Source: an uncultured beta proteobacterium (GTDB lineage Bacteria > Pseudomonadota > Gammaproteobacteria > Burkholderiales > Burkholderiaceae_C). From it: a stretch of 32,000 nucleotides of DNA. The stretch lies in the NCBI GenBank assembly GCA_903822205.1, contig CAIJOK010000024.1, positions 6,512-38,511 of the forward strand. The letters are read 5' to 3'. Both the position numbers and the translations under genes were made by a program. Shown here one piece after another: positions 10,719 to 29,641 of this stretch. The notes beneath the pieces were generated by a model. The model made no database searches and was not told the DNA's origin. It saw only the letters and a list, made by a program, of their open reading frames with translations. Position 1 is the first letter of the stretch, and the number at the start of each line of letters is the position of its first letter.

Positions 10719-10722
10719 GGCG

Positions 10723-11520
10723 CTACACCTCAAACCCAAACAAGGCCGCCAATTCTTCGCCAGGCTCTGCGGCTTGCATCAAGGCCTCGCCCACCAAAAA
10801 CGCTTGTACGCCGGCCGCCTGCATTTGCAGCACGTCATCGCGGGCATGAATGCCACTTTCGCAGACCAGCAAACGATCGGCTGGCACATCGCGTCGCAAC
10901 TGCAAGGTGGTATCCAGCGAAACCTCAAAAGTCTGTAGATTGCGGTTGTTCACGCCGATCAAGGGGGTTTTGAGCCTCAAGGCGCGTTCCAGTTCACGTG
11001 CATCGTGAACCTCGACCAGCACCGCCATGTCCAGCCCCTGGGCGATGGCCTCAAAATCTCGCAGTTGTGTATCGTCCAGCACTGCGGCGATCAACAAAAC
11101 GGCATCTGCGCCGATCACCCTGGACTCGTAGATTTGATAGGCATCGACCATAAAGTCTTTGCGCAACACTGGCAAATGGCACGCGGCACGCGCTTGCTTA
11201 AAGCCATCGACACTGCCCCCAAAAAACTGCTGATCCGTCAGCACCGACAAACAGGCTGCGCCATATTCGGCGTAACTTTGGGCCATGTCGGCTGGATAAA
11301 AATCAGCGCGCAAAACGCCACGGGACGGGCTGGATTTTTTGATCTCGGCGATGACGGCGGCCTGACCGCCGGCCATTTTGCTGCGCAGGGCAGCTTCAAA
11401 ATTGCGCGTCAATACGCGGCTTTCGGCATCCGTCCGCACGTCAGACAGGGGTTTGCGCTTTAAGGCGGATGCCACCTCGGTGCGTTTGACCGCGACGATT
11501 TTGTCCAGGATATGTGTCAT
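10723..11520 (-). CDS. trpC: Indole-3-glycerol phosphate synthase
   Basis: [16 protein letters not shown]..., [42 protein letters not shown] and CESGI are classic TrpC blocks. The internal ATG at 11520 is preferred over the ORF-track start at 11601. Confidence 0.94.
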
Positions 11521-11569: not shown

Positions 11570-12541
11570 TCACGGCAGTGTGATCTGGGTATCACGCGCA
11601 AAGGGCCACTTGCGGTTGATCTCGTTGGTCAATTGGCCGATACGCCGCAGGTTGGCCTCAATCTCGGCACGCAGAGTGACCAGGTCGGTGCTGGCCACGC
11701 GGACATTGGCCCCCACCGCCTGGGCCTCGGCCAACACGGCATCCACTTTTTGCAAGCTGGCGCGGGTGTCGCTCAGGACGGCGGTCAGTTGTGCCGTGGC
11801 CGTCTGGGTGCCGGTTAGGGTGGTCATCACGCCGTCTATCACCCCTTTGTCACCATAGATGCGTTGCTGTGTGGTGGCCAACAGCCGGTTGGTTTGGTCC
11901 AGTGTGGTGATGATTTTTTGGGCATGAAGCTCACTGCCCAGCACACCGGTCAGCACCCCATAGCGACCGGTTGTACGCTCGGTCACAGTCTTCAGGTTAG
12001 CCAAGCTGGTGTTCAGACTGGACTGCGGGCCGGTCATGTTGGTGAGGTTCTCCAAAAGCTCGCGGGCCGATGCCACCAGGCGCGGAATCTCGGCCCCAGT
12101 GTCGCCGCGCAGCAAGGTGCGCTCGGCGTTGGCAGGCAGTGGTGGGTCTGTCAAAACGCCGCTAAAGGCGCGAATGCGGGTGTCGCCCACCATGCCGCGT
12201 TCCATCGTAAAAATGCTGGAGGTGCGCAGCCAGTGGGCATCTTTGCGCGGAACATCGACCACCATGCGGGCCTTGCCGTCAGTGCTCAGCTCGATGCGCT
12301 GCACCCGCCCGATGGGAAACCCCGAAAAAGTGACCTCCATGCCCACCATGACGCCCTCTGAGTCATCAGACACCAGCACCAATTGCTGCGTACTGTCAAA
12401 CACGCCCCGGGCCACCATCACGTAGAGCGCAAAACCGGCGATCAGGGCGGCAGCGGCCACCAACAACAGCGCAGCCTTGCGCTCCAGATGGGCAATGGGG
12501 GGCAGGGTGTTGGGGGGTGAAGGGTTGGAATCGTCTTGCAT
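11570..12541 (-). CDS. MlaD/MCE-domain membrane protein with a long C-terminal helical region
   Basis: An N-terminal TM helix ([20 protein letters not shown]) is followed by an MCE core ([35 protein letters not shown]). Start chosen at ATG 12541 (MQDDSNP...). Confidence 0.78.
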
Positions 12542-16779: not shown

Positions 16780-18015
16780 TTAGTTCTGCAATGCCCGCAA
16801 ATACGCCGGAATCTCAATGTCGCTCATGCCGCCGCTGGACAGCGCGTCGGCCCTGCCTGCAATGTTGCGCTCGCGGTTGGTGCGCCAGACGGCAGGGGTA
16901 TTGACATCCGATTGCCCTCGCATGGGACCCTGATCAGTGGGGGCGGTGTTTTGGCCCTCGCAAGCTGCGCCCTGAAGCAAAAGATCATTCGACCCCGTGC
17001 GCCATTTGGTTAGGGGCCGTGGGCCACCACCTGATACCACCTGAAGCTTGGGGCGGGGCTGGCTTAGGCCCGTGGCCAACACCGTGACACGAATTTGGTC
17101 ACCCAGTGTCTCGTCATACGCAGAACCGTAAGTGATGATGGCCTCTGGAGAAGCGTATTCGCTGACGGTGTTCATCGCTTGTTTTGATTCTGACAGTTTG
17201 AGTGTAGATTTGCTGCCCGAAACCAAGACGACCACGCCCTTGGCACTGGACAAGTCCAATCCTTCAAGCAGAGGGCAAATCAGGGCCTGGGTAGCTGCAG
17301 TGCCGGCCCTGTCCGGGCCAGATGCCACGGCGGTGCCCATGATGGCCTTGCCAGGCTCTTCCATGATGGATTTCACATCTTCAAAGTCCACGTTCACCTG
17401 ACCTGTCACATTGATGACTTCGGCCAAACCGCCCACGGCATTTCTCAACACGTCGTTGGCCAAGGCAAAAGCCTGCTCTTGCAATATGTCTTCGTTTTCC
17501 TCAGTCAATAGTTTTTCATTCAACACAACGATCAGGGAATCGACATTGGCCTCCAGTTCTTTCAGTCCGGCCTCGGCTTGATTCATGCGGCGTTTGCCCT
17601 CAAACTCAAAGGGCTTGGTCACAACGCCAACGGTCAAGATGCCCATTTCACGGGCGATGCGGGCGATCACCGGGGCAGCACCACTGCCTGTTCCGCCGCC
17701 CATGCCGGCTGTGATAAACAGCATATGGGCACCGTCAATGGCTTGGCGAATGCTGTCAGTCGCCAATTCTGCTGCCTCACGCGCACGGTCGGGCTTGCCA
17801 CCGGCACCCAGACCGGTGGTGCCCAGCTGGATCAGGCTGCCGGCACTGCACGTGTTCAGCGCTTGCGCGTCTGTGTTGGCGCAGACAAAGTCAATGCCAA
17901 GGACGTTGCTGGCGATCATGTGAGACACGGCGTTGCCGCCGCCGCCACCAACACCGATCACTTTGATGTGTGTGCCGCGATTAAAGGTTTCGACACCGAT
18001 CATTTCGATAGCCAT
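16780..18015 (-). CDS. ftsZ: Cell division GTPase FtsZ
   Basis: IKVIGVGGGGGNAV, the GGGTGSGAAP tubulin signature and a C-terminal DIEIPAYLR peptide. Start at ATG 18015 with GGAGAA upstream. The ORF-track extension to 18123 runs through the AT-rich spacer and is not credible. Confidence 0.97.
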   Translation of the reverse strand: MAIEMIGVETFNRGTHIKVIGVGGGGGNAVSHMIASNVLGIDFVCANTDAQALNTCSAGSLIQLGTTGLGAGGKPDRAREAAELATDSIRQAIDGAHMLFITAGMGGGTGSGAAPVIARIAREMGILTVGVVTKPFEFEGKRRMNQAEAGLKELEANVDSLIVVLNEKLLTEENEDILQEQAFALANDVLRNAVGGLAEVINVTGQVNVDFEDVKSIMEEPGKAIMGTAVASGPDRAGTAATQALICPLLEGLDLSSAKGVVVLVSGSKSTLKLSESKQAMNTVSEYASPEAIITYGSAYDETLGDQIRVTVLATGLSQPRPKLQVVSGGGPRPLTKWRTGSNDLLLQGAACEGQNTAPTDQGPMRGQSDVNTPAVWRTNRERNIAGRADALSSGGMSDIEIPAYLRALQN

Positions 18016-18085
18016 AATATTCTCCAAAAAATCAAGGGGGTATGAAAACAAAAAAATATACAAATACAAATACAACAAAAGAAAT

Positions 18086-19318
18086 CTAAAAGTTTTTGAC
18101 GATCCAGTCACGCAGGCTGCCAAAAGCAGTCTTCATGGAGCCATTTTTTTGGGCCACCTTCAGGCCGCGCAGACGGGCTTGACGCGCTTCTTCAAGCATG
18201 CCCATCACAGTGGCAGCGCGAGGTTGTGCCACCATGTCTGACAGTGCGCCGGTGTATTTGGGGATGCCGCTACGCACCGGCATGGTCAAGAAAATGTCCT
18301 CGCACAGATCGACCATACCGGGCATGATGCAACTGCCGCCAGTCAACACCACGCCGCTGATCAGCGTGTTGGAAAAGCCGGACTCGGTGACGATCTGGTG
18401 CATCAGCCTGAATATCTCTTCTACCCGTGGCTCGATCACGCCGGCTAGGGCCTGGCGACTTAACATGCGTGGGCCACGGTCGCCCAGACCAGGTACTTCA
18501 ACCTGGGCCTCGGGGTCAGCCAGCAACTGCTTGGCGTAGCCGTTTTCTATTTTGATGTTCTCGGCATCCTTGGTGGGCGTACGCAATGCCATGGCGATGT
18601 CACTGGTGATCAAGTCTCCGGCAATCGGGATCACGGCGGTGTGGCGAATCGCCCCCCGCGTGAAAATGGCCAAGTCGGTCGTTCCTGCGCCGATGTCGAT
18701 CAGGGCCACGCCCAGCTCGCGCTCATCGTCGGTCAGTACGGACAGACTTGATGCCAGCGGATTGAGCATCAGCTCTTCAACCTCCAAGCCGCAGCGACGG
18801 ACACATTTGATGATGTTTTCAGCGGCGCTCTGGGCACCTGTCACGATGTGAACGGTGGCATCGAGTCGCACACCGCTCATTCCAATAGGCTCTTTGACAT
18901 CCTCGCCATCAATGCTGAACTGCTGAGGTTCCACCAGCAACAGACGCTGGTCTGAGGATATGTTGATGGCTTTGGCGGTTTCGATCACCCGCCCAACGTC
19001 GGTGGCGGTGACCTCGCGCTCGTTGATGGCCACCATGCCGTGCGAATTGATACCACGCAGGTGGCTGCCCGTGATACCGGTATAGACACGGGTGATCTTG
19101 CAGTCGGCCATCAGCTCTGCCTCTTTGAGGGCCTGCTGAATACTATGGACGGTGGCATCAATATTGACCACCACGCCGCGTTTCAAGCCACCGCTGGCGG
19201 CCACACCCAGACCGGCCAGTTTTAAATCGCCGCTGGCGGTGACCTCGGCCACGACGACCATCACCTTGGCGGTGCCAATGTCCAGACCGACGACCATGTC
19301 CCTAAATTCTCTTGCCAT
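18086..19318 (-). CDS. ftsA: Cell division protein FtsA (actin-like ATPase)
   Basis: VVGLDIGTAKV, DIGAGTTDLAIF and VLTGGSCIMPGM. It sits between ftsQ and ftsZ. Confidence 0.96.
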   Translation of the reverse strand: MAREFRDMVVGLDIGTAKVMVVVAEVTASGDLKLAGLGVAASGGLKRGVVVNIDATVHSIQQALKEAELMADCKITRVYTGITGSHLRGINSHGMVAINEREVTATDVGRVIETAKAINISSDQRLLLVEPQQFSIDGEDVKEPIGMSGVRLDATVHIVTGAQSAAENIIKCVRRCGLEVEELMLNPLASSLSVLTDDERELGVALIDIGAGTTDLAIFTRGAIRHTAVIPIAGDLITSDIAMALRTPTKDAENIKIENGYAKQLLADPEAQVEVPGLGDRGPRMLSRQALAGVIEPRVEEIFRLMHQIVTESGFSNTLISGVVLTGGSCIMPGMVDLCEDIFLTMPVRSGIPKYTGALSDMVAQPRAATVMGMLEEARQARLRGLKVAQKNGSMKTAFGSLRDWIVKNF

Positions 19319-19324
19319 TGATGT

Positions 19325-20167
19325 TCACCTGTTGGTTGTGACGGATGGATTAGAACGATTGGCGGCGACCGTGCTGACACCGCCCAGACGCATGGCGTAG
19401 CCATCGGTGTGGCGCAGATCGACCGAAGCCAGTTGCGACGGGCTGCGCTTGAAAGCGGCGGTGGCCCGCGTCATGGTGCGCAAAAAGCGCTCGGTACGGG
19501 CCACGATGGCATCGCTGCTGCCACTGCCAAATATCAGTTCGGTGTCGTCGTTTTGGAGGCCGCGCCAGCCACCGCGTGCGGTCAATTCAAGCTGGGTGAG
19601 CGTCAAGTCGTGAGGGGCAAACAGGCCTTGCAGCTTTTGGTACATGGCCAACACCTGCACAGACTGGTCGTCAGGGCCGATCAGCCTTGGCAGGTTGTCG
19701 GCATCCACCTCGTCAGGGTTGGCATCAAAAATCTCGCCAAAACGGTCGATCAATCGCATGTCGCCATCGGTATTGCTGCTGTCGATTCCACTGCCATCGG
19801 ACCCTTTGCTGCCAGGCATCCAGTAGGCCACTGTTTGATGCTCAGAAAGTGCGACTTTCAGGCGGTTTGGGTACGCACGGTGAACGACGGCGTGCCTGAT
19901 CCATGGCAGTGATTCAAAGGCATGACGGGCGGCATTGACATCCTGGCTAAAAAAGTTACCACTCAAATGGGGCAACACATGGGCACGCAAGGTTACGGCG
20001 TTGTAGTGCGACACATCGCCGGTCACGGTGATTCCTTGAAGGTCAAACTGTGGCAGTTGCGTCACATAGGCCACTACTACACGCAGTGCCAGCAACAGTG
20101 CCAGCCCCACCAGAACTTGGGTCACCCTGTTCATCAGCCAAATATCAAAGGGAACGGGGGCACTCAT
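19325..20167 (-). CDS. ftsQ: Cell division protein FtsQ
   Basis: A single N-terminal TM helix followed by a POTRA-like segment ([19 protein letters not shown]... [19 protein letters not shown]). Its position between ddl and ftsA supports the call. Confidence 0.9.
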
Positions 20168-21117
20168 ACGGTTCCGTAGTCACAGCAAGCACTGGACAGC
20201 AGCAGCAGGCACAGCGCTTGGTAGCTGATGCCGGCTGCCCGGGCCGACATGGGTACCAGCGAGTGGCTGGTCATGCCGGGCGACGTGTTGATCTCTAGCA
20301 AAGAGGGCAAACGGGTGGGTGCATCGATCATCACATCGACACGCGCCCAGCCCCTGCAGCCCAGGCTGCGATAGGCCTCTTGCGCCAGTTGCATGATGCG
20401 GGCCTCTTCACCGTCTGGCAAACCGGCAGGCACCAGATATTCGGTGGTGTCTGTAAAGTATTTGTTGTTGTAGTCGTAATTGCCGTCCGGTGCCTTGATG
20501 CGGACGACCGGCAGCGCACGGGCATCGGCGCATGTACCCAAGACAGGCACGGTGACCTCATCGCCTGCAATGTATTGCTCACACAAAACCTCGTCGCCCA
20601 GCCCTGCTGCCAAGGCGTAGGCAGCTTCGCACTGACCCACTGACGTGACTTTGGTCAGACCGATCGTGGAACCCTCACGCGAGGGCTTGACGATCATCGG
20701 ACAGCCGAGATCACCAAGTGCCGTACGGGTAGCCGCAGCGCTATCCACTTTGAGCCAGTTTGGCGTAGGCAGACCATCTGCTCGCCAGATATGCTTGGTC
20801 ATGATCTTGTCGATGGCAATGGCGGATGCCATCACACCCGGGCCGGTGTAAGGAATGCCCATCAGCTCAAGCGCGCCTTGCACCGTACCGTCTTCGCCAA
20901 AGCGTCCGTGCAGGGCGATAAAGCAGCGCGTAAAGCCCTCTTGTTTGAGGCAAACCATGTCACGCACTGAGGGGTCAAAGGCGTGGGCATTGACACCCTG
21001 CCCCTGAAGGGCCTGCAATACGCCGTGCCCTGACATAAGCGATATCTCGCGCTCGGCAGAGGCCCCACCCATCAGCACGGCCACCTTGTCAGATGCCAGG
21101 TCAAATGGACTCATCAT
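20164..21117 (-). CDS. ddl: D-alanine--D-alanine ligase
   Basis: [45 protein letters not shown] and EINTSPGMT. The start at ATG 21117 overlaps the murC TGA (ATGA). The ORF-track start at 21207 lies inside murC. Confidence 0.95.
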
Positions 21118-22553
21118 GCCCGTCCCGTCTGCATGGAGTGCTCTGCATTGTGTAGCATTTCGACCACTTGAGCCGCCACCGAGCCGATCGTGCCGGCCCC
21201 CATGCACAAGACCACGTCGCCGTTTTGGGCGTTGTCGCAGATGGCCTGCGGCATGTCGGCAATGTCGGCCACAAACACAGGCTCAATGCGGCCCGCCACC
21301 CGCAGGGCACGGGCCAGACTGTGGCCGTCGGCTGCCACGATAGGTGACTCTCCGGCGGCATACACATCAGCCAACAACACCGCATCAGCCTGGGCCATGA
21401 CGCTCACAAAATCATCAAAACAGTCCCGGGTGCGGGTGTAACGATGCGGCTGAAACGCCAGCAACAGCCGTCGCCCGGGGTAAGCCCCGCGCGCTGCCGC
21501 GATGGTGGCAGCCATTTCGGCTGGATGGTGTCCATAGTCGTCGATCAGCGTGAACGTGAACGTGCCACCACCGACGCAAGCCGTTAGATCGCCGTGGTGT
21601 TGAAAGCGCCTACCCACACCCTTAAACTGGGCCAAGGCGCGCAAAACGGCATCATCGGCAAGGTTCAACTCAACGGCCACGGCAATCGCCGCCAGGGCAT
21701 TCAACACGTTATGACGACCGGCCAGGTTAAGCACCACTTGCAGATCAGGCAGCACCACGCCGTTGCGACGCTGCACCGTAAAGTGCATTTGCACCCCTAC
21801 CGCCCGCACATCCACAGCGCGAACCTGCGATCCTTCAGAAAAACCATAGGTGGTTACAGGGCAGGTGACTTGCGGCACGATGGATCGGACGGCGGAGTCA
21901 TCGGTACACAAAATGGCCGTGCCATAAAACGGCATACGGTGTAAAAACTGGACAAACGCTTGCTTCAGACGGTCAAAGTCGTGACCATAGGTGGCCATGT
22001 GGTCGGCATCCATGTTGGTCACGATGGCCATGAGGGGCAGCAGGTTCAAAAATGAGGCATCGGACTCATCAGCCTCAACGACGATGTGGATGCCTTGTCC
22101 CAGACGGGCATTGGCCAAAGCACTGTTCAGCCGCCCGCCGATCACAAAGGTGGGGTCAAGGCCGGCTTCGGCCAAAAGGCAGGCCACCAGACTGGTGGTG
22201 GTGGTTTTGCCATGGGTACCGGCAACTGCAATGCCCTGCTTGAATCGCATCAGCTCAGCCAGCATCAGGGCGCGTGGCACCACCGCTATGTTTTTGGCAC
22301 GTGCGGCCAACACTTCGGAGTTGTCGGCGTGTACTGCCGTAGAGGTCACCACGACATCAGCGCCTGCAACGTGTTCTGGCGCATGGCCCACAAACGTGCG
22401 AATGCCTAGAGCAGACAGGCGTTGCAGGGTGACACTGTCAGCCTGGTCGGAGCCTGACACGGTGTAGCCTAAATTGAACAACACCTGGGCAATGCCGCAC
22501 ATGCCCGAGCCACCGATGCCCACAAAATGGATATGTCGGACGGCGTGTTTCAT
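21114..22553 (-). CDS. murC: UDP-N-acetylmuramate--L-alanine ligase
   Basis: [18 protein letters not shown], the [12 protein letters not shown]-loop and DDYGHHP. Confidence 0.96.
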
Positions 22554-23662
22554 AGGATGTCCTCACACGCCGCCACAATGGCCTCTGTGGCGTGGGTTTG
22601 TTGCAGGCATTTGGCCTCGATCGCTTTGTTCATCAGTGTGGTTCGCTCTGTATTCATGAGTATCTCAGCCAATTTTTCAGGGCCAAACTGAAACTGCGGC
22701 AGCAGCCAGGCAGCCCCCTGATCAACCAAAAATCGGGCATTTTGGGTTTGATGGTCATCGACGGCATAGGGGTAGGGCACAAACAAGGCTGCAGCTCCCA
22801 CGGCGGCAATCTCGGTCACGGTACTGGCACCCGCACGGCAAACCACCAAGTCAGCGTCGGCCATGGCCTGCGCCATGTTGTCGATGAACGGCAGCAGTTG
22901 GGCATCCACGCCGGCATCGGCATAGTGGCGCTGCACGGCCTCGATCTGCAATGCACCGCTCTGATGGGTGACCATCGGGCGACGGTGCTGCGGTATCAGG
23001 GCCAGAGCGCGTGGCACGACTTCATTAAAGGCCTGTGCGCCTTGACTGCCGCCAATGACCAGTACCCTGAGCGGCCCGGTGCGGCCCATAAAACGATCCT
23101 GGGGCTCTGGCACCGTCAAAAACGCTATGCGCAAGGGATTACCCACCCAGCGGGCACCTTTGATCACACACGGAAAAGCCGTGAACACGCGGCTGGCCAA
23201 ACGGGCTTGCAGCCGGTTAGCCAGACCAGCGACGGCATTTTGCTCATGCAGCACCAACGGAATGCCCAGCAACGCGCCCATCGATCCGGCGGGTGCCGTG
23301 ATATAGCCCCCCAGTCCCACCAGCACATCGGGTCGAACGCGGCGCAGCACCAGCAGGCTTTGCAACCACGCCACCATCAAGCGCAAAGGCAAGAGCGCCG
23401 TCATCCACCATCCGCGTCCACGCACACCCCCAAAGTGGATCGCGTCAAAGGCAAAGCCTTGAGGGGGAATCAACAGGCTTTCCATACTGGGATGCGAACG
23501 GCTGCCCGCGCCACCCAGCCAATGCACCCGCCAGCCGCAAGACCGCAAGGCATGGGCTATGGCCAGCCCCGGAAAGATGTGTCCGCCAGTGCCACCGGCC
23601 ATGATCAAGGCACACTTGCCCGCAGGGGACCGTGTGGAAGGCGTGACCGTCCGGTGGGTCAT
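22550..23662 (-). CDS. murG: Undecaprenyldiphospho-muramoylpentapeptide beta-N-acetylglucosaminyltransferase
   Basis: [22 protein letters not shown] and the [14 protein letters not shown] blocks. Confidence 0.95.
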
Positions 23663-24921
23663 GTCCGGCCTCCCGGCATCAGGGCACGGTTTTCGTGATC
23701 GACTCGCAGCACCACGGCGATCGCAGCCAGGTTAAGCAGCATGGCGCTGCCGCCGTAGCTCATCAGGGGCAAGGTCAACCCCTTGGTGGGCAATGCACCC
23801 AGGTTGACACCCATGTTGATAAAGGCCTGAAACCCCACCCAGATGGCTACGCCCTGGGCCAGCAGTCCGGCAAACACCCGCTTCAGGGTGATGGCTTGCC
23901 GGCCAATGTTCATCATGCGCCGCACCAGCCATAAAAACAGCCCGATCACCAGCATGATGCCCACAAGACCAAACTCCTCGCCGATCACCGCGAGTAAAAA
24001 ATCGGTATGGGCCTCTGGCAACCAATTCAGCTTTTCGACGCTGCCGCCCAAACCCACCCCAAAGACCTCGCCTCGCCCGATGGCAATCAGCGAGTGGGTC
24101 AGTTGATAGCCTTTGTCCAGAGCGTAATCGGCGTTCCATGGGTCAAGGTAAGCAAAAATGCGTTTACGGTGCATGTCGCTGAAGGTGACCATCAGGCCAA
24201 AAGCCGCCACCATGGCCGCCGTGATCAGCAAAAAAACCGTGGCATTGACACCACCTAAAAATAAAATGCCCATCGCGATCACGGCGATCACCAAAAAGGC
24301 ACCCATGTCGGTCTCGGCCAACAGCAATACCCCTGCTGCCAGTACCGCAGCGCACATGGGCCAGACGGCCTTGAACAGGTGCTCTTTGTCCTCCATCTTG
24401 CGCACCATGTAGTCCGCTGCATACAGCACCACGGTAAATTTGGCCAACTCTGACGGCTGAAAACTGAGCAGACCCAAGCCTATCCATCGTCGCGAACCAT
24501 TGACCACCTTGCCGATGTGTGGGATCAAGACCAGCACCAGCAATACCAATGACAGTGCAAACAAAGGGCGGGCCAGCTTTTCCCAAACGGAGATCGGCAC
24601 TTGCCAGGCCAGCAGAGCCACGATCGACGAGATCAGCAGCCACAGCGCATCAAGCTGTAGAAAATGATGATGGGTGTAGCGTACATAGCGGTCCATCTCG
24701 GGTAAAGCGATCGAGGCTGAATAGACCATGACGAGCCCCCACAAGAGCAGGATGGCAGTGACCCAAATCATGGCCTGATCAACCGTCTCGCCCTCTGCGT
24801 CTGGCGGGCCTGATGCCTGCAAATGTCGGGCATTGAGGCGCACGGGCAAGGTCATGGACGCATCATCTTGTGGACTTGTGCGACCTGATTGGCTGAACTT
24901 GCGAAGCAGACGGGCGATCAT
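23659..24921 (-). CDS. ftsW: SEDS-family peptidoglycan glycosyltransferase FtsW
   Basis: Polytopic membrane protein with QPSELAKF, the [14 protein letters not shown] region and [12 protein letters not shown]. It sits between murD and murG. Confidence 0.93.
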
Positions 24922-26411
24922 GATGAGCCTCCCGGCGCAGCGATACCGTGTACCGCCTGCACAAACATCCTGGCACGGTGGGCATAGTCGTTAAACATGT
25001 CCAGGCTGGCGCAGGCCGGTGACAACAACACGGTGTCGCCTATCTGCGCCAAGGCATAGGCCTGTTGCACGGCATCGTCCATGGCCTGTGCGTACCGCAA
25101 CGGCACACCGGTGTCTGCCAAAACCGCATGGATCAGATGAGCGTCCCGTCCGATCAACACGGCAGCCCGTGCAAACTGCCTGACAGCTTGGGCCAGAGGG
25201 CCAAAATCCTGCCCTTTGCCGTCACCGCCCAAAATGATCACGACTTTGCAGGTGGCCCCCACACTGCCAAGTGCCGCCACAGTGGCCCCCACGTTGGTCC
25301 CCTTGCTGTCGTCGATAAAGTCAATACTGCACACCGAATTTACCCATTGCACACGGTGCGGTTCGCCGCGATAGGCACGCAGGCCGCCCAGGGTGAGGTT
25401 TGGCGGACAGCCCGCCGCAGTCGCCAAGGCCAGGGCCGCCTGCGCATTGAGTGCGTTGTGATGGCCCCGGATCAACAAGTCGCCGGTGGGTAGCAACCGC
25501 TGTAGGGGCAGGGCCGATGCTTGCCCACCGTGTAACTCCGTGGTGATCTCTGTGGCGCGAACAAGCCACGTCACGCCGTCTGCCACATCCAGTCCAAAGT
25601 CACCCGGGCGCTGCGGAACATCGCTGCCAAAGGTCACCGTGTTTGATGCAGTGCCCGGACATGGGGCTGCGCCTGTTTGCATCGCCATCACAGCAGGGTC
25701 ATCGCGGTTAAGCACTTGTAAACGTATTTGCAAACCTGCGTGACCAAAAATTCGGCTTTTGGCTTGGGCATAGGCCGCCATACTGCCGTGCCAGTCGAGG
25801 TGATCCTGCGTGAGGTTGAGCACCGTGGCCGCAGTGGGGCAAAAACCGTCTGCGCTATCCAGTTGAAAGCTGGACAGCTCAAGCACCCACACCTGGGGCA
25901 GGTCGTCAGCATCCAGCCGTGCCGCCAAGGTGTCAAGCAGCGTGGGGCCAATATTGCCGGCCACTGCCACGGTCCTGCCGGCGTGTGCCACCAGTTGGCC
26001 GGTCATCGACGTGACCGTGGTTTTGGCATTGGTGCCGGTGATCGCCAACACGACGGGGGCATAGCCACGGCTGGAGGCAAGCTGCGCCAGCGCCTGTGCA
26101 AACAAAGTCAATTCGCCGCTGACGCTGATGCCGCTTGCCTGCGCGGCTGTGGCAATCACTGCGATCTCTGCCGGGCTGAGGCCCGGGCTTTTGAACACGG
26201 CATTCACACCCTGCAACAGGCCGGCAGTGAATGCACCGCCGACAAAGCGGATCATGGGCAACTCACTTTGCAGCACGGCCAACTGCGGCGGGTTTTGCCG
26301 TGTATCGGCTACCGTGACCCGTGCGCCGCAACGGACACACCAGCGCGCCATGCCCAGGCCGGACGCGCCCAGGCCCAGAATCAGAATGTGTTGGTGTTGA
26401 AGGGAGTTCAT
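24918..26411 (-). CDS. murD: UDP-N-acetylmuramoylalanine--D-glutamate ligase
   Basis: [16 protein letters not shown] (N-terminal Rossmann fold), the [12 protein letters not shown]-loop, [11 protein letters not shown] and [11 protein letters not shown]. Confidence 0.93.
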
Positions 26412-26431
26412 GGTTCGTGTGATTCAGTCGA

Positions 26432-27391
26432 TCAAGCGCATTGCATGGATAACTCAAATGGCCGCCATTCGTCAAATAATGAAGTTTTGACTGCGCCGGT
26501 TTGACTGTATTCTTGAATGGCGTTTGCGATAAATGTGCCGAGATTGACCGGAACGGCATTTCCGATCATTTGCTCCAAGTTTGTTTTGGTACCAAAAAAT
26601 TTGAAATCGCTGGGGAATGTTTGAATATAACTGCGCTCAATGGTCGTGAGTGGCCTGACATTTTTGAGATCAACATGATCCGGATCGCAAGTATTGAGCT
26701 TGTAACCTTTGGGCACAGGCCGATTGACACCCCGGACAGTTGGGCTGGGTTCATCGATCGTAAAAACGCCCCTGCGGTTATAGTTTCTGGGGTGGCGATA
26801 ATAAACCTCCAAACCAAGCTTGTTGCCAAGATAATCACGGATTGTCATTTGTTTTTTGGCAAGATTTTTTTTGATGATTCCGTCAAGTTGATGATGAGGG
26901 CCATTCAAGATGCCTATCAAAAAGAATCTTGTTCTGGACTGAGGTACGCCACAAAATGAAGCATCAAGAATAATTGATGTCAAACCATAACGCGCCTTGT
27001 CAAATTGCTCTATCACATCCGCAAGAATGTGGCTCTTTTTGATTTGTTCAACATTTTCCATGACAAACCACATGGGTTTCAATGCACAGACAATATTCGC
27101 AAAATGACAGGTCATATCTGCCCTTCCTTGTGTGACATCCCGTTTTCCTGCACTTGAAAAATCCTGGCAGGGCGGGCCCCCCATGATGATGTCTGGCGCA
27201 AATTCCTTGATTTTGTCAATGGATTCTTTTTCATTGGACAAATCCTGATTGAATACAGGATGAGAAAAATTTTGTTGATACACATCAATGGCAGGTTGCC
27301 AATGATCAAAAGCGGCAACGACATCCAGTCCGGCTTGTTGAAAGCCCAGGGAAAGTCCTCCGCAACCTGAAAAAAGATCAACGCACTTCAT
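26432..27391 (-). CDS. DNA (cytosine-5)-methyltransferase, type II R-M modification subunit
   Basis: All canonical m5C-MTase motifs are present in order: I DLFSGCGGLSLGF, IV GGPPCQDFS, VI FVMENV, VIII QSRTRFFLIG, IX ERSYIQTFPSDF, X GNAVPVNL. There is a short variable (TRD) region between motifs VIII and IX. Confidence 0.95.
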   Translation of the reverse strand: MKCVDLFSGCGGLSLGFQQAGLDVVAAFDHWQPAIDVYQQNFSHPVFNQDLSNEKESIDKIKEFAPDIIMGGPPCQDFSSAGKRDVTQGRADMTCHFANIVCALKPMWFVMENVEQIKKSHILADVIEQFDKARYGLTSIILDASFCGVPQSRTRFFLIGILNGPHHQLDGIIKKNLAKKQMTIRDYLGNKLGLEVYYRHPRNYNRRGVFTIDEPSPTVRGVNRPVPKGYKLNTCDPDHVDLKNVRPLTTIERSYIQTFPSDFKFFGTKTNLEQMIGNAVPVNLGTFIANAIQEYSQTGAVKTSLFDEWRPFELSMQCA

Positions 27392-28434
27392 ATAAAAAGA
27401 TGAGGGGAATTGAACAAGATAGCATCGAAACGACGTTCAGGACTCAACAAATTCTGACCGCCACCCAAAATGATGTTTTTGATTTCTGATCGTCTGATGA
27501 TGGGTTTGATCAATCTGGGGCAGGACATGTACGGATTGGTGATATTTCCTGAAGAAGCGAAAGCCTTGTCATTTTTTGTATTGAATGACAGTTCGTCAAT
27601 AATCCTTTCGTGATTAAATTTATTATTATCTTTAATATCGCTCAACATCTTATATAGCCAAATTGCGGTTCTGGTTTGCCGTGTGATGTTTGCGGAGTCG
27701 GGGTTTTGATTGGCTATACTTGAAATAAAATAACCAAATCCGGCATTGCTCCAGACAAATACATCCAAACAGTTTTCAGAAAGTTCTGGTGATTTTCCGT
27801 TGGTTTTCCAGATGGGTTGCAGCAAAAATGCTTTTTGTTGTTTTTGAAGTGCGACGGAAATTAACTTAATGGCACAAACAATGGCATCTATTTTCTCTGA
27901 TACTTGCCTCGCATCAGACCAGTCCGTGATGGCGATCGACGGTACATGATCTCCAAGTGCACTGGATAAACTCATAGCCATGCTGCAAGCCAGATAAACG
28001 ATCGTATCGGGTCTGATGACAATTTCGCTTCCATAAAGATTTTCGTCAAGATCACACGTCGTATTGTCAGGCAAGGCTGTCAATTTGACATCCAAACCGG
28101 CCAAACATTCTCCAGTACTTTCCTTTTGAACCACCAAATCTGTTCTGGGCAAAGAACCCACCACAAATTTTTGAAATGGCGTATGCTGTGATTCGAATGC
28201 AAAATAAGCATCCTTATCATCTGCACGGATTCCAAATACATTTTGGATTGGAATAAAACTTTGGATTAACTTGCCGTTTTCAATTGCCAGATAATTGCCT
28301 GGCAAATTTTTGGATGCTAAATAACAACATAATGCAGCAGGAAATGATGAATTAAATTGATTCTTACCCCAGGTTTCCCGTTGAGTAAAATCCCGATTGG
28401 TACGATTCAAACCAAATAAGCAGGGGGTGTTCAT
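27388..28434 (-). CDS. Candidate type II restriction endonuclease (family not identified; PD-(D/E)XK-like E81...D99-x15-D115-V-K117)
   Basis: The 348-aa intact ORF has a stop that overlaps the MTase ATG (ATGA at 27388-27391). It has the same low GC content as the MTase and an AAAGG Shine-Dalgarno upstream. The segment FAFESQH...PRTDLVVQKESTGECLAGLDVK fits a PD-(D/E)XK core. The functional call rests on context plus this motif only. Confidence 0.6.
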   Translation of the reverse strand: MNTPCLFGLNRTNRDFTQRETWGKNQFNSSFPAALCCYLASKNLPGNYLAIENGKLIQSFIPIQNVFGIRADDKDAYFAFESQHTPFQKFVVGSLPRTDLVVQKESTGECLAGLDVKLTALPDNTTCDLDENLYGSEIVIRPDTIVYLACSMAMSLSSALGDHVPSIAITDWSDARQVSEKIDAIVCAIKLISVALQKQQKAFLLQPIWKTNGKSPELSENCLDVFVWSNAGFGYFISSIANQNPDSANITRQTRTAIWLYKMLSDIKDNNKFNHERIIDELSFNTKNDKAFASSGNITNPYMSCPRLIKPIIRRSEIKNIILGGGQNLLSPERRFDAILFNSPHLFI

Positions 28435-28462
28435 GGATGTGATACCTTTATTATTAGTTTTT

Positions 28463-29641
28463 TTACCGCAGCTTCAAGGTACTCAACCCCACCAGGCATA
28501 ACAGCATGGTGATGATCCAGAAACGGACGACGACCTGGGTTTCTTTCCAGCCAGTTTTCTCAAAATGGTGGTGCAGCGGGGCCATTTTGAGAATGCGACG
28601 GCCCTGGCCGTATTTCTTTTTGGTGTATTTGAAATAACCCACCTGCACCATCACCGACAGGGCCTCGGCCACAAAGATGCCGCCCATGATGGCCAGCACA
28701 ATCTCTTGCCGCACAATGACGGCGATTGTTCCCAGGGCACCCCCCAGGGCCAGCGCCCCCACGTCGCCCATAAATACCTGCGCCGGATGGGTGTTAAACC
28801 ACAAAAACGCCAAACCCGCCCCCGACATGGCAGAGCAAAAAATCATCAGCTCACCGGCCCCTGCAATATGGGGCAAAAACAGATAGCGGGCAAAAACGGC
28901 ATTGCCGGTGACATAAGCAAAAATACCCAAACATGACCCTACCATGACCACAGGCATGATGGCCAGACCGTCCAGGCCATCGGTCAGATTGACGGCATTG
29001 CTGGCCCCCACGATCACCAGATAGGTCAGCAGCACAAAGCCCCACACCCCCAGTGGGTAGCTGATCTCTTTGAAAAACGGCAGCATCAGCCCGGCCGTGG
29101 GCGGCAGACTGACATCAAAGCCGGACTGCACCCAGGTAAAGAACAGCTCCAGCACGCGGGCGTTGGTGTTCTCGGAGATGCAAAACACCAGGTACAGCGC
29201 GGCGGCCAGGCCGATCAGCGACTGCCAGGCAAATTTCTCGCGCGATGACATGCCCTCGGGGTTGTGATCGACCACCTTGCGCCAGTCGTCAGCCCAGCCA
29301 ATGGCACCCAAGCCCAGGGTGACGGTCAGCACCATCCAGACAAAGCGGTTGCTCCAGTCAAACCAGAGCAGCGTTGAAAGCAAAATACTGAGCAGAACCA
29401 GCACGCCGCCCATGGTGGGTGTGCCACGTTTGACCAGGTGAGACTCTAGGCCATAGCCCCGGACGGGCTGTCCAATTTTGATGGCGGTCAGGTAGCGAAT
29501 GACCCACGGGCCAGCAGCCAGTCCCAGCAACAGCGCGGTCATGGCGGCCATCACCGCCCGAAAGGTTTGGTACTGAAAAACGCGCAAAAAACCCAGATCG
29601 GGTGACAGGGATTGCAGCCATTGGGCCAGCCAGATCAGCAT
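28463..29641 (-). CDS. mraY: Phospho-N-acetylmuramoyl-pentapeptide transferase
   Basis: Polytopic membrane protein with Kx[32 protein letters not shown] and the APLHHHFE motifs. Confidence 0.97.

What the first reader, a model, noticed from the sequence alone, without database searches (positions are those of the whole stretch)
26412..28462. Foreign restriction-modification cassette inserted inside the dcw operon between mraY and murD
Seen in sequence. The minus-strand order is murE/F-mraY-[348-aa ORF][m5C MTase]-murD-ftsW-murG-murC-ddl-ftsQ-ftsA-ftsZ, and the two extra genes are co-directional with the operon. They are separated from mraY by 28 nt and from murD by 20 nt, with no hairpin or T-run in either spacer. 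GC drops to 25-42% in hand-counted lines versus about 60% in the flanks. No integrase, transposase or tRNA is nearby. Established knowledge. The mraY-murD adjacency is one of the most conserved gene neighbourhoods in bacteria, and much of dcw transcription originates upstream at the mraZ promoter and reads through. Inference. Transcripts feeding murD through ftsZ from upstream promoters must read through a defence module. The nuclease and methylase are therefore probably expressed from an essential, growth-coupled operon. Imprecise loss of the cassette risks polar damage to essential genes, which would be an unusual way of anchoring a selfish or defence element. I do not know of a described case at this junction.
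Basis: partly seen in the sequence, partly recalled or inferred. Interest (0 to 1): 0.82.

Follow-up and report, generated by a model that had tools for sequence, protein, structure and literature searches.

The report
Old restriction-modification cassette inside dcw operon
A two-gene restriction-modification defence system (BsaHI/HgiDI family, site GRCGYC) sits exactly between the essential cell-wall genes mraY and murD of a freshwater Comamonadaceae bacterium; it is real and foreign in origin but old and inherited with the operon, which makes it a neat new example of a known habit of such systems rather than a new kind of thing.

Summary
On the minus strand, mraY (28463-29641) is followed after 28 nt by a 348-aa HindVP/BsaHI-family restriction endonuclease (27388-28434, Pfam 3e-131). 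A C5-cytosine methyltransferase (26432-27391) overlaps it by ATGA, and murD follows after 20 nt. The insert has GC 0.415 against 0.585 for the rest of the window. The window holds no tRNA, integrase or transposase, and neither spacer holds a terminator-like site. Two independent assemblies match the window exactly across the junctions.

- The host DNA is almost free of the family's site GRCGYC (1 site against 47-63 expected), with a matching excess of the 5mC-deamination product.
- A second, diverged lineage (L139, MurD 64% identical) has the same insertion with homologous junctions. Cassette dS equals host-gene dS, and dN/dS is about 0.09. The insertion is therefore old, vertically kept and under selection, yet still AT-rich.
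- The window's endonuclease alone has D in place of the family-invariant E of the proposed catalytic ExK motif.

R-M insertion into operon-like clusters, and between the essential genes pheS and pheT in Neisseria, is already described. This is a new member of a known kind at a new locus. Co-transcription and anchoring remain untested.

The parts
28463..29641 (-). mraY (392 aa), the upstream host gene. Its C-terminus ...LSTLKLR* is intact and identical to that of relatives.
   Evidence: Pfam Glycos_transf_4 and MraY_sig1. C-terminus compared with L056, L058 and L139.
28435..28462 (-). Left spacer of 28 nt: aaaaactaataataaaggtatcacatcc. All but about the first 6 nt is the cassette's own leader (purine-rich AAAGG, Shine-Dalgarno-like). 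There is no hairpin or T-run.
   Evidence: The leader aligns with free-standing cassette L001 (CAATTGAAAAGGTATCAC) and with L139. Terminator scan.
27388..28434 (-). R gene: 348-aa restriction endonuclease of the HindVP/BsaHI/HgiDI family (PD-(D/E)xK), predicted site GR/CGYC.
   Evidence: Pfam PF09519 at 3.1e-131 covering 1-332 of 332 profile positions. PADLOC REase_II 3.6e-110. Signature motifs WGKNQF, KNDKAFAS and QNLLSPERRFD are present (motifs defined in PMC2413257). dN/dS against L139 is 0.085.
28090..28092 (-). Codon 115 of R (GAT, Asp) in the proposed catalytic ExK motif. It is Glu in all 91 other near-full-length homologues.
   Evidence: Motif counts are EIK 60, EVK 31, DVK 2 (the window and its identical copy L054). 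This is the only deviation in 81 columns conserved at 95% or more. D is also present in L055 and in strain variant P0121. L139 has EVK.
27424..27444 (-). SPERRFD motif of R (residues 331-337). Mutagenesis showed it is essential for BsaHI activity.
   Evidence: Intact here and in 82 of 93 family members. Function from PMC2413257.
27388..27391 (-). ATGA overlap of the R stop and M start, the geometry of translational coupling. It is conserved across the closer cassette relatives.
   Evidence: The same R-then-M order with overlap or a 0-3 nt gap occurs in the closer related loci; more distant ones have gaps of up to about 70 nt.
26432..27391 (-). M gene: 319-aa C5-cytosine DNA methyltransferase with motifs FSGCGG (I), PPCQ (IV), ENV (VI), QSRTR (VIII) and GNAVP (X). 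The C-terminal tail is altered (PFELSMQCA*, where other cassettes have PFELPNKxLNRMG*).
   Evidence: Pfam PF00145 5.2e-72, TIGR00675 2.2e-47, PADLOC MTase_II 7.5e-155. Only one conservative deviation (L93M) in 79 conserved columns. Tail comparison. dN/dS is 0.094.
26412..26431 (-). Right spacer of 20 nt (tcgactgaatcacacgaacc) with no Shine-Dalgarno sequence and no terminator. It is homologous to the 26-nt spacer of L139.
24918..26411 (-). murD (497 aa), the downstream host gene. In cassette-free relatives its start overlaps or abuts the mraY stop.
   Evidence: Pfam MurD-like_N, Mur_ligase_M and Mur_ligase_C. Empty-site junctions in L056 (4-nt overlap) and L058 (TAG CC ATGAAC).
16780..24921 (-). 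The remaining downstream dcw genes, all co-directional and tightly packed: ftsW 23659-24921, murG 22550-23662, murC 21114-22553, ddl 20164-21207, ftsQ 19325-20167, ftsA 18086-19318, ftsZ 16780-18123.
   Evidence: ORF list. Pfam matches for ddl, ftsQ, ftsA and ftsZ and precomputed Pfam hits for ftsW and murG. murC is assigned from its Mur-ligase sequence and its position, matching the annotated relatives L058 and L139.
28429..28436 (-). Left copy of the 8-nt CCATGAAC, at the R start codon.
   Evidence: Read directly from the sequence.
26406..26413 (-). Right copy of the 8-nt CCATGAAC, at the murD start codon. The empty site in L058 reads TAG-CC-ATGAAC.
   Evidence: The meaning is uncertain (microhomology or coincidence).
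12350..12355 (+). The only GRCGYC site (GACGCC) in the whole 32-kb window.
   Evidence: 1 site found against 47.2 +/- 6.6 expected from dinucleotide-preserving shuffles.

Best explanation
This is a Type IIP restriction-modification cassette of the BsaHI/HgiDI/HgiGI/HindV family. The endonuclease cuts GR/CGYC and the m5C methyltransferase methylates the central cytosine. DNA consisting of little more than the two ORFs plus a roughly 20-nt leader was inserted once, flush between the mraY stop codon and the murD start codon. This happened in a common ancestor of at least two now well-diverged freshwater Comamonadaceae lineages.

Shown.
- The identity of both genes.
- The insertion relative to cassette-free relatives.
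- Shared junctions in two lineages.
- Cassette divergence equal to host divergence.
- Strong purifying selection on both R and M.
- Near-total loss of GRCGYC from host DNA, with a 5mC-deamination signature.

Inferred.
- The cassette has no terminator and no convincing promoter of its own. It is therefore probably transcribed as part of the long dcw transcript, which must pass through it to reach murD through ftsZ.
- R is probably translated from the cassette's own purine-rich leader. M is probably coupled to R through the ATGA overlap.
- murD used to be coupled to the mraY stop and now sits 20 nt after the M stop without a Shine-Dalgarno sequence.
- The system has acted in vivo for a long time as a methylating, restricting defence module.
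- In the window's lineage the nuclease carries E115D in the proposed catalytic ExK motif. It may now be attenuated, and the nearly site-free genome makes that harmless to the host.
For: Identity. R matches Pfam RE_HindVP at 3e-131 over its full length. M matches PF00145, TIGR00675 and PADLOC MTase_II. R has the family signature motifs WGKNQF, KNDKAFAS and QxxxSPERRFD, as defined in PMC2413257. The family's specificity GRCGYC and central-C methylation were shown experimentally for BsaHI and M.HindV (PMC2413257, PMC2615612).

Insertion. The relatives L056 and L058 have mraY and murD overlapping by 4 nt or 2 nt apart. None of more than 130 other cassette loci has dcw neighbours. DNA homology to other cassettes covers only the two ORFs plus about 20 nt of leader.

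In vivo activity and specificity.
- GRCGYC occurs once against 47.2 +/- 6.6 expected from shuffles, or 62.8 expected from an order-2 Markov model.
- GACGCC/GGCGTC is the most depleted of 771 non-palindromic hexamers (1 against 28.9).
- GRTGYC/GRCAYC is in excess (182 against 120), which matches the deficit.
- Host flanks of 47 other cassette loci hold 63 sites against 298 expected. The control site GYCGRC has 254 against 368.

Age and vertical inheritance.
- L139 (R 81%, M 83% identical) has the same mraY-R-M-murD order, the same odd M tail PFELS(T/M)Q and homologous spacers.
- Host proteins between the two lineages are 64-91% identical.
- dS is 1.35 for R and 0.96 for M, against 0.88-1.63 for mraY, murD, ftsW and murG.
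- The two cassettes are sister taxa in 200 of 200 NJ bootstraps.
- WIN and L139 form a bipartition in a 120-taxon MurD tree in 80 of 100 bootstraps.

Selection. dN/dS is 0.085 for R and 0.094 for M. Lineage-specific change in R is symmetric, 17 against 15.

Read-through. Neither spacer holds a terminator-like site. Promoter-like hits are no more numerous than in shuffles (6 against 4.5 +/- 2.1).

Not an artefact. Independent assemblies are identical across both junctions.
Against: No expression or methylation data exist, so co-transcription, translational coupling and current nuclease activity are all inferred.

The window's R has D where 91 of 91 homologues have E in the proposed catalytic motif. 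HindVP itself, which lacks ExK, is inactive (PMC2413257, PMC2615612). The nuclease here may therefore be weakened or dead.

The cassette keeps GC3 of 0.33-0.43 in hosts with GC3 of 0.62-0.74. A simple amelioration model would take that as a recent arrival. Synonymous sites are near saturation (pS 0.52-0.66), so 'equal dS' is a coarse statement.

The WIN+L139 grouping in the MurD tree has only 80% NJ support and joins two long branches. GRCGYC avoidance is also complete in L056, which has an empty junction, so avoidance alone does not prove that this particular copy is the agent. The host avoids many other palindromes too.
Confidence: 0.78

Rival explanations
1. The cassette spread laterally between the two Comamonadaceae lineages, or inserted twice at the same spot, rather than being inherited from their common ancestor. 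Homologous recombination through the highly conserved mraY and murD flanks would carry it across, as R-M islands between conserved genes spread in naturally transformable bacteria.
For: By raw identity the window is the most divergent of the four dcw loci. MurD is 64-66% identical between the window and each of the others, while L139 is 74% identical to the cassette-free L056 and L058. Both carriers come from the same metagenome series (BUCK21-1). The cassette is still AT-rich. The mraY 3' end is 83% identical at nucleotide level, which is good recombination substrate.
Against: Cassette dS (0.96-1.35) is not lower than host-gene dS (0.88-1.63). The junction spacers and the altered M tail are homologous but themselves diverged. 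MraY next to the junction is no more similar between the two carriers (90.6%) than between carrier and non-carrier (92.5%). WIN and L139 group together in the 120-taxon MurD tree (80 of 100). Independent insertion at the same nucleotide with the same truncated M tail is very unlikely.
Confidence: 0.12
2. In the window's organism the nuclease is already dead because of E115D. The locus is then functionally an orphan m5C methyltransferase plus a nuclease relic, not a working defence system.
For: D115 replaces a residue that is E in 91 of 91 homologues and lies in the proposed catalytic ExK. Family members lacking ExK (HindVP, Crocosphaera) are inactive (PMC2413257). R decay with M retained is common in this family: Microcystis loci L045-L052 keep only about 90 residues of R. 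A genome almost free of target sites removes post-segregational selection.
Against: D is the other permitted acid of the PD-(D/E)xK motif. R shows no other deviation in 81 conserved columns, no frameshift and no excess of lineage-specific changes (17 against 15). SPERRFD is intact. Both strain variants keep a full-length ORF. The catalytic assignment of ExK in this family is itself only proposed.
Confidence: 0.25
3. The arrangement is an assembly chimera that joins AT-rich foreign DNA to a dcw contig.
For: Some contigs break near or inside the cassette. L054 starts 86 nt upstream of R, and L055 ends inside R at window position 27903. There is a sharp GC step at both junctions.
Against: The two assemblies overlap each other and match the window exactly across both junctions. 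The window's exact R is recorded on 5 contigs and its M cluster on 9, the longest 47 kb, from NCBI, Logan and ENA. A 99%-identical MurD variant also has a gene ending 20 nt upstream. A second, diverged organism has the same arrangement.
Confidence: 0.02
4. The methyltransferase has been recruited as an epigenetic regulator of cell division or cell-wall genes, like CcrM or Dam, which would explain its place in the dcw operon.
For: It is probably co-expressed with division genes. It has been retained for a long time under purifying selection.
Against: The genome has almost no GRCGYC sites left to regulate (1 in 32 kb and none in the dcw region). R is equally conserved. The same cassette sits in unrelated operons elsewhere: ferredoxin-hydrolase in Simplicispira and glnE-lpqE-like in L141.
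Confidence: 0.03

Closest known systems
BsaHI / HgiDI / HgiGI / HindV Type IIP R-M systems (REase Pfam PF09519; GR/CGYC; m5C at the central C)
   Same: Both proteins are clear homologues. R matches the family profile over its full length and has the three signature motifs (WGKNQF, (Q/K)(T/N)DKAF(A/S), QxxxSPERRFD). M has all the m5C motifs checked. Host DNA avoids GRCGYC and shows the expected central-C deamination products (PMC2413257, PMC2615612).
   Different: The proposed catalytic ExK reads DVK here. Direct identity to the characterised enzymes was not measured, because their sequences were not retrieved. The genomic position inside dcw differs from all other sampled members.
NmeDI (and other allelic R-M systems) between pheS and pheT in Neisseria meningitidis
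   Same: A Type II R-M with an m5C methyltransferase is lodged between two adjacent essential genes of one operon, with presence or absence varying among related lineages (PMC7973814, PMC3082526).
   Different: The locus (pheS/pheT) and the enzyme family (RCCGGY, with a Vsr gene) differ. In Neisseria the locus is a hot spot with alternative occupants exchanged by transformation. Here a single cassette appears to have been kept vertically for genus-level time.
R-M systems as self-contained mobile units that insert into operon-like gene clusters or insert with long target duplications (Kobayashi and co-workers)
   Same: The insert consists of R and M only and has no integrase or transposase. It lies co-directionally inside a gene cluster. 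The same cassette family is also wedged into other co-directional arrays (L002/L007, L141) (PMC2993543, PMC2853133).
   Different: There is no long (over 30 bp) target duplication and no flanking inverted repeats. At most there is an 8-nt CCATGAAC repeat. The target here is the most conserved gene cluster of bacteria.
Restriction-site avoidance in genomes carrying the cognate R-M (established general knowledge)
   Same: The cognate site is strongly under-represented in host DNA, here and in flanks of 47 other cassette loci.
   Different: The depletion is unusually complete (ratio about 0.02). It can be attributed quantitatively to C-to-T change at the methylated base.

Membership tests
BsaHI/HgiDI/HindVP restriction endonuclease family (PF09519) | Full-length match to the family profile above the curated cut-off | tested here: met
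   437.8 bits against a cut-off of 25, residues 22-347 on profile positions 1-332 of 332. PADLOC REase_II 3.6e-110.
BsaHI/HgiDI/HindVP restriction endonuclease family (PF09519) | Signature motifs WGKNQF, (Q/K)(T/N)DKAF(A/S) and QxxxSPERRFD (R351 of BsaHI is essential) | tested here: met
   WGKNQF is at 22-27, KNDKAFAS at 287-294 and QNLLSPERRFD at 327-337. Motifs are defined in PMC2413257.
BsaHI/HgiDI/HindVP restriction endonuclease family (PF09519) | Proposed catalytic ExK of the PD-(D/E)xK core. It is present in the active enzymes and absent in inactive HindVP. | tested here: inconclusive
   The window has D115-V-K117. All 91 other homologues have E. D is chemically allowed in PD-(D/E)xK but is unprecedented in this family, so activity is unknown.
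BsaHI/HgiDI/HindVP restriction endonuclease family (PF09519) | Recognition and cleavage of GR/CGYC | not testable with these tools
   There is indirect support only. GRCGYC occurs once against 47-63 expected in host DNA, and GACGCC is the most depleted of 771 non-palindromic hexamers. Flanks of the cassette family as a whole hold 63 sites against 298 expected.
BsaHI/HgiDI/HindVP restriction endonuclease family (PF09519) | PD-(D/E)xK fold | tested here: inconclusive
   The AF2 model has pTM 0.73 and pLDDT 67, with the catalytic loop below 50. Foldseek against PDB gave no hit with E below 2. No family member has a solved structure. The fold assignment rests on the literature (PMC3424549, PMC2413257).
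C5-cytosine DNA methyltransferase (PF00145) cognate to a Type II REase | Conserved motifs I (FxGxG), IV (PCQ), VI (ENV), VIII (QxRxR) and X (GNAVP) | tested here: met
   FSGCGG is at 7, PPCQ at 73, ENV at 112, QSRTR at 151 and GNAVP at 277. There is only one conservative deviation in 79 conserved columns. PF00145 5e-72.
C5-cytosine DNA methyltransferase (PF00145) cognate to a Type II REase | Methylates the central C of GRCGYC in vivo | not testable with these tools
   Indirect support: the excess of GRTGYC/GRCAYC (182 against 120) equals the deficit of GRCGYC. M.BsaHI methylates the central C (PMC2413257).
Type II R-M gene pair | R and M adjacent and conserved as a unit across hosts | tested here: met
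   The same R-then-M order occurs in essentially all related loci that have both genes, overlapping or up to about 70 nt apart. R and M give congruent trees.
[quoted passage not shown] 2010) | Flanking direct repeats over 30 bp that match a single copy at the empty site, or flanking inverted repeats | tested here: not met
   There are no terminal repeats of 12 nt or more at the insert ends. Only the 8-nt CCATGAAC is repeated.
[quoted passage not shown] | The cassette is co-directional and lies between genes that are adjacent in relatives, with no linked mobility gene | tested here: met
   Empty site in L056 and L058. Co-directional with 28-nt and 20-nt spacers. No mobility gene or tRNA in 32 kb.
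[quoted passage not shown] | Co-transcription with the host operon | not testable with these tools
   Consistent only: neither spacer holds a terminator-like site, and promoter-like hits are not above chance.

The most novel reading that the evidence does not exclude
The cassette may have become a fixed, load-bearing part of the dcw operon. On this reading, transcription and murD translation now depend on it. Its persistent AT-richness would be maintained by selection rather than recency, for example because the AT-rich 2 kb supplies internal promoters or attenuates read-through to tune the ratio of upstream mur genes to downstream murD-ftsZ. This would make it a selfish element kept for genus-level time by being wedged into an essential operon, even after the genome has been purged of its target sites and its nuclease has begun to soften (E115D).
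Probability: 0.12. Interest if true: 0.7.

Novelty: new member of a known kind. Interest (0 to 1): 0.42.

Why it matters
The locus has three uses as a worked example.

First, atypical base composition is not a clock. A cassette with GC3 of about 0.35-0.43 has sat in hosts with GC3 of about 0.62-0.74 for as long as their essential neighbours took to reach dS of about 1. Low GC in R-M genes therefore cannot by itself be read as recent transfer.

Second, it is an unusually clean natural record of what an m5C R-M system does to its host genome. The target site is almost completely removed, and the loss is accounted for by C-to-T change at the methylated base.

Third, even the mraY-murD junction, one of the most conserved adjacencies in bacteria, can accept and keep a 2-kb selfish or defence module. 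This is relevant to how dcw expression tolerates insertions, and to the idea that position within essential operons stabilises such elements.

None of this changes the current understanding of R-M biology. It extends known behaviour to a new and striking locus.

Tried and rejected
- Vectors. No copy was found on viral contigs or phage genomes. Plasmids carry only distant (36%) homologues, on small mobilizable enterobacterial plasmids. The donor and vector are unknown. The nearest free-standing cassettes are in Methylococcaceae/Crenothrix-type genomes.
- Terminal repeats. I found no inverted repeats or long direct repeats, so a transposon-like or long-target-duplication mechanism is rejected. 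The 8-nt CCATGAAC repeat, and the resemblance of the right spacer to the cassette leader, could be microhomology or chance. ATGAAx is a common start of R in this family.
- Internal promoters. Four promoter-like hits lie on the coding strand in or next to the AT-rich insert, but the total is no higher than in shuffles. I draw no conclusion from them.
- GRCGYC avoidance as proof that this copy is active. This is weakened because the host avoids many palindromes and because cassette-free L056 also lacks GRCGYC. It was rescued in part by the non-palindromic members GACGCC/GGCGTC being the most depleted hexamer, and by the deamination signature.
- Raw-identity topology. Pairwise identities first suggested (WIN,(L139,(L058,L056))), which would require a loss. 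I rejected this as a rooting artefact after the 120-taxon MurD tree grouped WIN with L139, though support is moderate.
- First 'tight wedge' statistic. It was confounded by spurious ORFs in GC-rich DNA and was redone. Of 48 loci, 7 have same-strand ORFs abutting both sides.
- Rfam. No RNA families were found in the window.
- Literature search on amelioration of R-M genes. Nothing directly relevant was returned.


Full report
**1. What is there**

On the minus strand the window encodes a complete dcw cluster. The order is a fused murE-murF ORF, mraY (28463-29641), two extra genes, murD (24918-26411), ftsW, murG, murC, ddl, ftsQ, ftsA and ftsZ. The extra genes are a 348-aa ORF (27388-28434) and a 319-aa ORF (26432-27391) that overlap by ATGA. 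They lie 28 nt after the mraY stop and 20 nt before the murD start.

GC of 26412-28462 is 0.415, against 0.585 for the rest of the window and 0.60 in the immediate flanks. Neither spacer holds a terminator-like site. Promoter-like matches are no more frequent than in shuffled sequence (6 against 4.5 +/- 2.1). The window has no tRNA, no Rfam RNA and no integrase or transposase among the large ORFs scanned. The insert has no terminal inverted or long direct repeats. Only the hand-counted GC range was a little low.

**2. It is not an assembly artefact**

A Logan assembly of run ERR4194175 (L054) matches the window exactly from 86 nt upstream of R to murG. An ENA assembly (L055, ERZ18643531) is 100% identical over 4098 nt, from the murE-murF ORF through mraY into R. 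The look-ups also record the window's exact R on 5 contigs and its M cluster on 9, the longest 47 kb, from NCBI, Logan and ENA. A 99%-identical MurD variant from another sample also has a gene ending 20 nt upstream of murD.

**3. What the genes are**

The 348-aa protein matches Pfam RE_HindVP (PF09519) over the whole profile (3.1e-131) and PADLOC REase_II. The 319-aa protein is a C5-cytosine methyltransferase (PF00145 5e-72, TIGR00675, PADLOC MTase_II 7.5e-155). It has motifs I, IV, VI, VIII and X.

PF09519 is the family of BsaHI, HgiDI and HgiGI, all of which cut GR/CGYC. [quoted passage not shown] The family belongs to the PD-(D/E)xK superfamily (PMC3424549). The window's R has the three family signature motifs: WGKNQF, KNDKAFAS and QNLLSPERRFD.

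**4. It is an insertion**

MurD searches place the host in Comamonadaceae near Rhodoferax, but on an isolated branch. Apart from its own 99% cluster, the best hits are 64-66% identical. In two of the nearest relatives, mraY and murD overlap by 4 nt (L056) or are 2 nt apart (L058...CGC TAG CC ATGAAC...). MraY's C-terminus (LSTLKLR*) is identical in all of them.

The R-then-M pair occurs as a unit in 53 genome loci and 80 metagenome loci from many phyla. These include Methylococcaceae, Crenothrix, Simplicispira, Sulfuriferula, Gallionellaceae, Neisseriales, Deinococcales, Cyanobacteria, Bacteroidota, Clostridia and Patescibacteria. None of them has dcw genes next to the cassette.

Nucleotide homology to those cassettes covers the two ORFs and about 20 nt of leader (CAATTGAAAAGGTATCA). 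Homology begins no more than about 6 nt after the mraY stop. At the other end it fades inside the last roughly 10 codons of M, whose tail reads PFELSMQCA* instead of PFELPNKxLNRMG*. The inserted DNA was therefore essentially two ORFs plus a short leader, placed flush between a stop codon and a start codon.

An 8-nt CCATGAAC occurs at both the R start and the murD start, and the empty site in L058 reads CC ATGAAC. This could be microhomology used at insertion or coincidence. I leave it open.

**5. The host genome has been shaped by this specificity**

GRCGYC occurs once in 32 kb. Dinucleotide-preserving shuffles predict 47.2 +/- 6.6, and an order-2 Markov model predicts 62.8. The host avoids many palindromes, so the informative members are GACGCC and GGCGTC, which are not palindromes. 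Together they are the most depleted of 771 non-palindromic hexamers, with 1 observed against 28.9 expected. The next lowest ratio is 0.20.

Among single-base neighbours of the site, GRTGYC/GRCAYC has the largest excess. This is the product of C-to-T change at the central, methylated cytosine. Its count is 182 against 120 on both strands, and the excess equals the deficit of GRCGYC (2 against 125).

In the host flanks of 47 other cassette loci, GRCGYC is found 63 times against 298 expected. A control site of the same composition, GYCGRC, is found 254 times against 368.

This is indirect but coherent evidence for two things. The family's specificity applies here, and methylation (and probably restriction) has acted in vivo for a long time. 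There are caveats. The cassette-free relative L056 also has 0 sites against 18.6 expected, while L058 has 33 against 32.6. Isospecific systems are evidently common in this group, and avoidance alone does not prove that this copy is the agent.

**6. The insertion is old and vertically kept**

The closest R outside the source organism (P0122, 81% identical) lies on contig L139 from the same metagenome series. L139 has the same arrangement: mraY (partial), R, M, murD, ftsW, murG, murC. It shares the odd M tail (PFELSTQ*) and has homologous left and right spacers, so the two copies descend from one insertion event.

The hosts are nevertheless far apart. Identities are MraY 90.6%, MurG 71.8%, FtsW 72.0% and MurD 64.2%.

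| Gene | dS (window vs L139) | dN/dS |
|---|---|---|
| R | 1.35 | 0.085 |
| M | 0.96 | 0.094 |
| mraY (3' part) | 0.88 | 0.065 |
| ftsW | 1.27 | 0.157 |
| murD | 1.46 | 0.168 |
| murG | 1.63 | 0.125 |

The two cassettes are sister taxa among 31 cassettes in the R, M and concatenated trees (200 of 200 NJ bootstraps). They are only slightly closer to each other than to Methylococcaceae-type cassettes.

Raw identities suggested that the window is an outgroup to L139 plus the cassette-free relatives. That is a rooting problem, not a result. In a 120-taxon MurD tree the two carriers form a bipartition against 118 Rhodoferax-like sequences (80 of 100 bootstraps). The simplest history is one insertion in their common ancestor and vertical inheritance since, with both genes under purifying selection.

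Synonymous sites are near saturation and the tree joins two long branches. Early lateral spread through the conserved flanks therefore cannot be excluded. I give it about 0.12.

**7. Two oddities**

First, despite this age the cassette is still AT-rich. GC3 is 0.38-0.43 in the window and 0.33 in L139, against 0.62-0.74 for the host genes. The cassette is AT-rich in nearly every host sampled, including hosts with strong site avoidance. Composition therefore cannot be used to date this insertion. I did not test why amelioration has not occurred.

Second, the window's R differs from family consensus at only one of 81 columns conserved at 95% or more. That column is the glutamate of the proposed catalytic ExK motif. 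It is E in 91 of 91 other homologues, including L139, and D here. D is also present in the identical assemblies and in a strain variant.

Family members that lack ExK, such as HindVP, are inactive (PMC2413257, PMC2615612). D is the alternative acid of PD-(D/E)xK. R shows no other sign of decay, and lineage-specific changes are symmetric at 17 against 15. The nuclease may be normal, attenuated or very recently inactivated. I put about 0.25 on 'dead'.

**8. How it most likely works**

Shown:
- Gene identities and the tight co-directional placement.
- No terminator-like site in either spacer.
- The ATGA overlap of R and M.
- A purine-rich leader before R that is conserved with free-standing cassettes.
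- No Shine-Dalgarno sequence before murD.
- Relatives in which murD starts at the mraY stop.

Inferred:
- Transcripts from upstream dcw promoters run through R and M to reach murD through ftsZ, so the cassette is expressed with the operon.
- M is translationally coupled to R.
- murD, formerly coupled to mraY, is now reached 20 nt after the M stop.
The data do not separate the two.

The same cassette family is wedged co-directionally into other gene arrays:
- Between a ferredoxin-like gene and a hydrolase in two Simplicispira genomes, with the M stop overlapping the next ATG.
- Between glnE and an LpqE-like gene in L141, with the R start overlapping the glnE stop.
- Overall, 7 of 48 loci have same-strand ORFs abutting both sides.

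Operon embedding is therefore a recurrent habit of this cassette and not a peculiarity of dcw. Free-standing copies also exist (L143).

**9. Comparison with what is known**

The system is a member of the BsaHI/HgiDI/HindV R-M family, with one motif variant whose effect is unknown. [quoted passage not shown] NmeDI lies between the essential genes pheS and pheT in Neisseria (PMC7973814, PMC3082526). This locus does not fit the 'long target duplication' or transposon-like classes. A full-text search for R-M together with dcw, mraY and murD found no report of this junction being occupied. That search covers open-access literature only.

**10. Verdict**

The core interpretation (a foreign R-M cassette inside dcw between mraY and murD) is supported. 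The functional inferences are plausible but untested. The implied novelty is overstated, because the phenomenon is known at other loci.

The added value here is threefold: evidence for old, vertical, selected retention; near-complete purging of the target site with a deamination signature; and the persistent compositional anomaly. I classify it as a new member of a known kind and score interest at 0.42.

Noticed in passing
window 29635-32000 (- strand; continues beyond the window); L055 3029-6007: murE and murF are fused into one 992-aa ORF with no internal stop, and a short Pro/Arg-rich linker region joins the halves (...[27 protein letters not shown]...). The relatives L056 and L058 have separate, 4-nt-overlapping murE and murF. 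MurE-MurF chimeras are known, especially in beta-proteobacteria (PMC10214165).
   Followed up: partly
whole window (host part): The host avoids many hexamer palindromes besides GRCGYC. Observed against order-2 Markov expected: GGCGCC 0/26, CCGCGG 0/14, ATGCAT 0/10, GTCGAC 0/9, CAGCTG 1/24, GTGCAC 1/13, GGGCCC 2/20, GCATGC 2/19, CTGCAG 3/18. GRGCYC (6/36) and GTYRAC (10/36) are also low. This suggests exposure to many R-M specificities.
   Followed up: partly
L056 (whole locus, 6.8 kb) versus L058 (11.5 kb): The cassette-free relative L056 has 0 GRCGYC sites against 18.6 expected, while its relative L058 (MurD 82% identical) has 33 against 32.6. L056's organism probably carries or recently carried an isospecific system elsewhere.
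   Followed up: no
L002 5965-8012 and L007 5974-8012 (Simplicispira MAGs); L141 5001-6994: The same cassette is wedged co-directionally into other host gene arrays with overlapping stop and start codons. In two Simplicispira species it lies between a ferredoxin-like gene and an alpha/beta-hydrolase-like gene at the same site. In L141 it lies between glnE and an LpqE-like gene, downstream of petB-petC-sspB.
   Followed up: partly
L045-L052, L133-L138 (Microcystis loci): In many Microcystis genomes only the first 80-90 residues of R remain, next to an intact M. This is recurrent decay of the nuclease with retention of an orphan methyltransferase.
   Followed up: no
all cassette loci L001-L052: The cassette is AT-rich (GC 0.31-0.51), and lower in GC than its flanks in nearly all 47 hosts, by up to 0.27. 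This holds even where host DNA is strongly depleted of GRCGYC (for example L005: host 0.64, cassette 0.38, sites 2 against 23.5). A few hosts show no depletion (L003 5/5.8, L016 9/10, L036 11/6.8). These may be recent arrivals, inactive copies or copies with changed specificity.
   Followed up: partly
protein P0123 (437 aa): One R homologue carries an internal tandem duplication of about 87 residues (CSLIVSVGRHLDEHLEKIKIRDW...FVWSNAGFAH repeated). It is either an assembly artefact or a duplicated middle domain.
   Followed up: no
window 27903 and 28520 (ends of contigs L055 and L054): Independent assemblies break inside or just upstream of the cassette. L055 ends within R, and L054 begins 57 nt inside the mraY 3' end. 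The cause could be the composition or coverage change, or strain heterogeneity at this locus. I saw no empty-site contig for this organism.
   Followed up: partly
window 26406-26413 and 28429-28436: The 8-nt CCATGAAC is present at both the murD start and the R start. L139 has CCATGAAC and CAATGAAC at the same places. The right spacer (ATCACACGAACC) also resembles the leader of free-standing cassette L001 (ATCACGAAC). This may be a trace of the insertion mechanism or chance.
   Followed up: partly
window 9990-10739 (- strand): A uracil-DNA-glycosylase-superfamily protein (PF03167, 2.6e-15) is encoded about 16 kb from the cassette. No Vsr-type T:G mismatch endonuclease was seen in the window, although the genome shows a strong 5mC-deamination footprint.
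   Followed up: no
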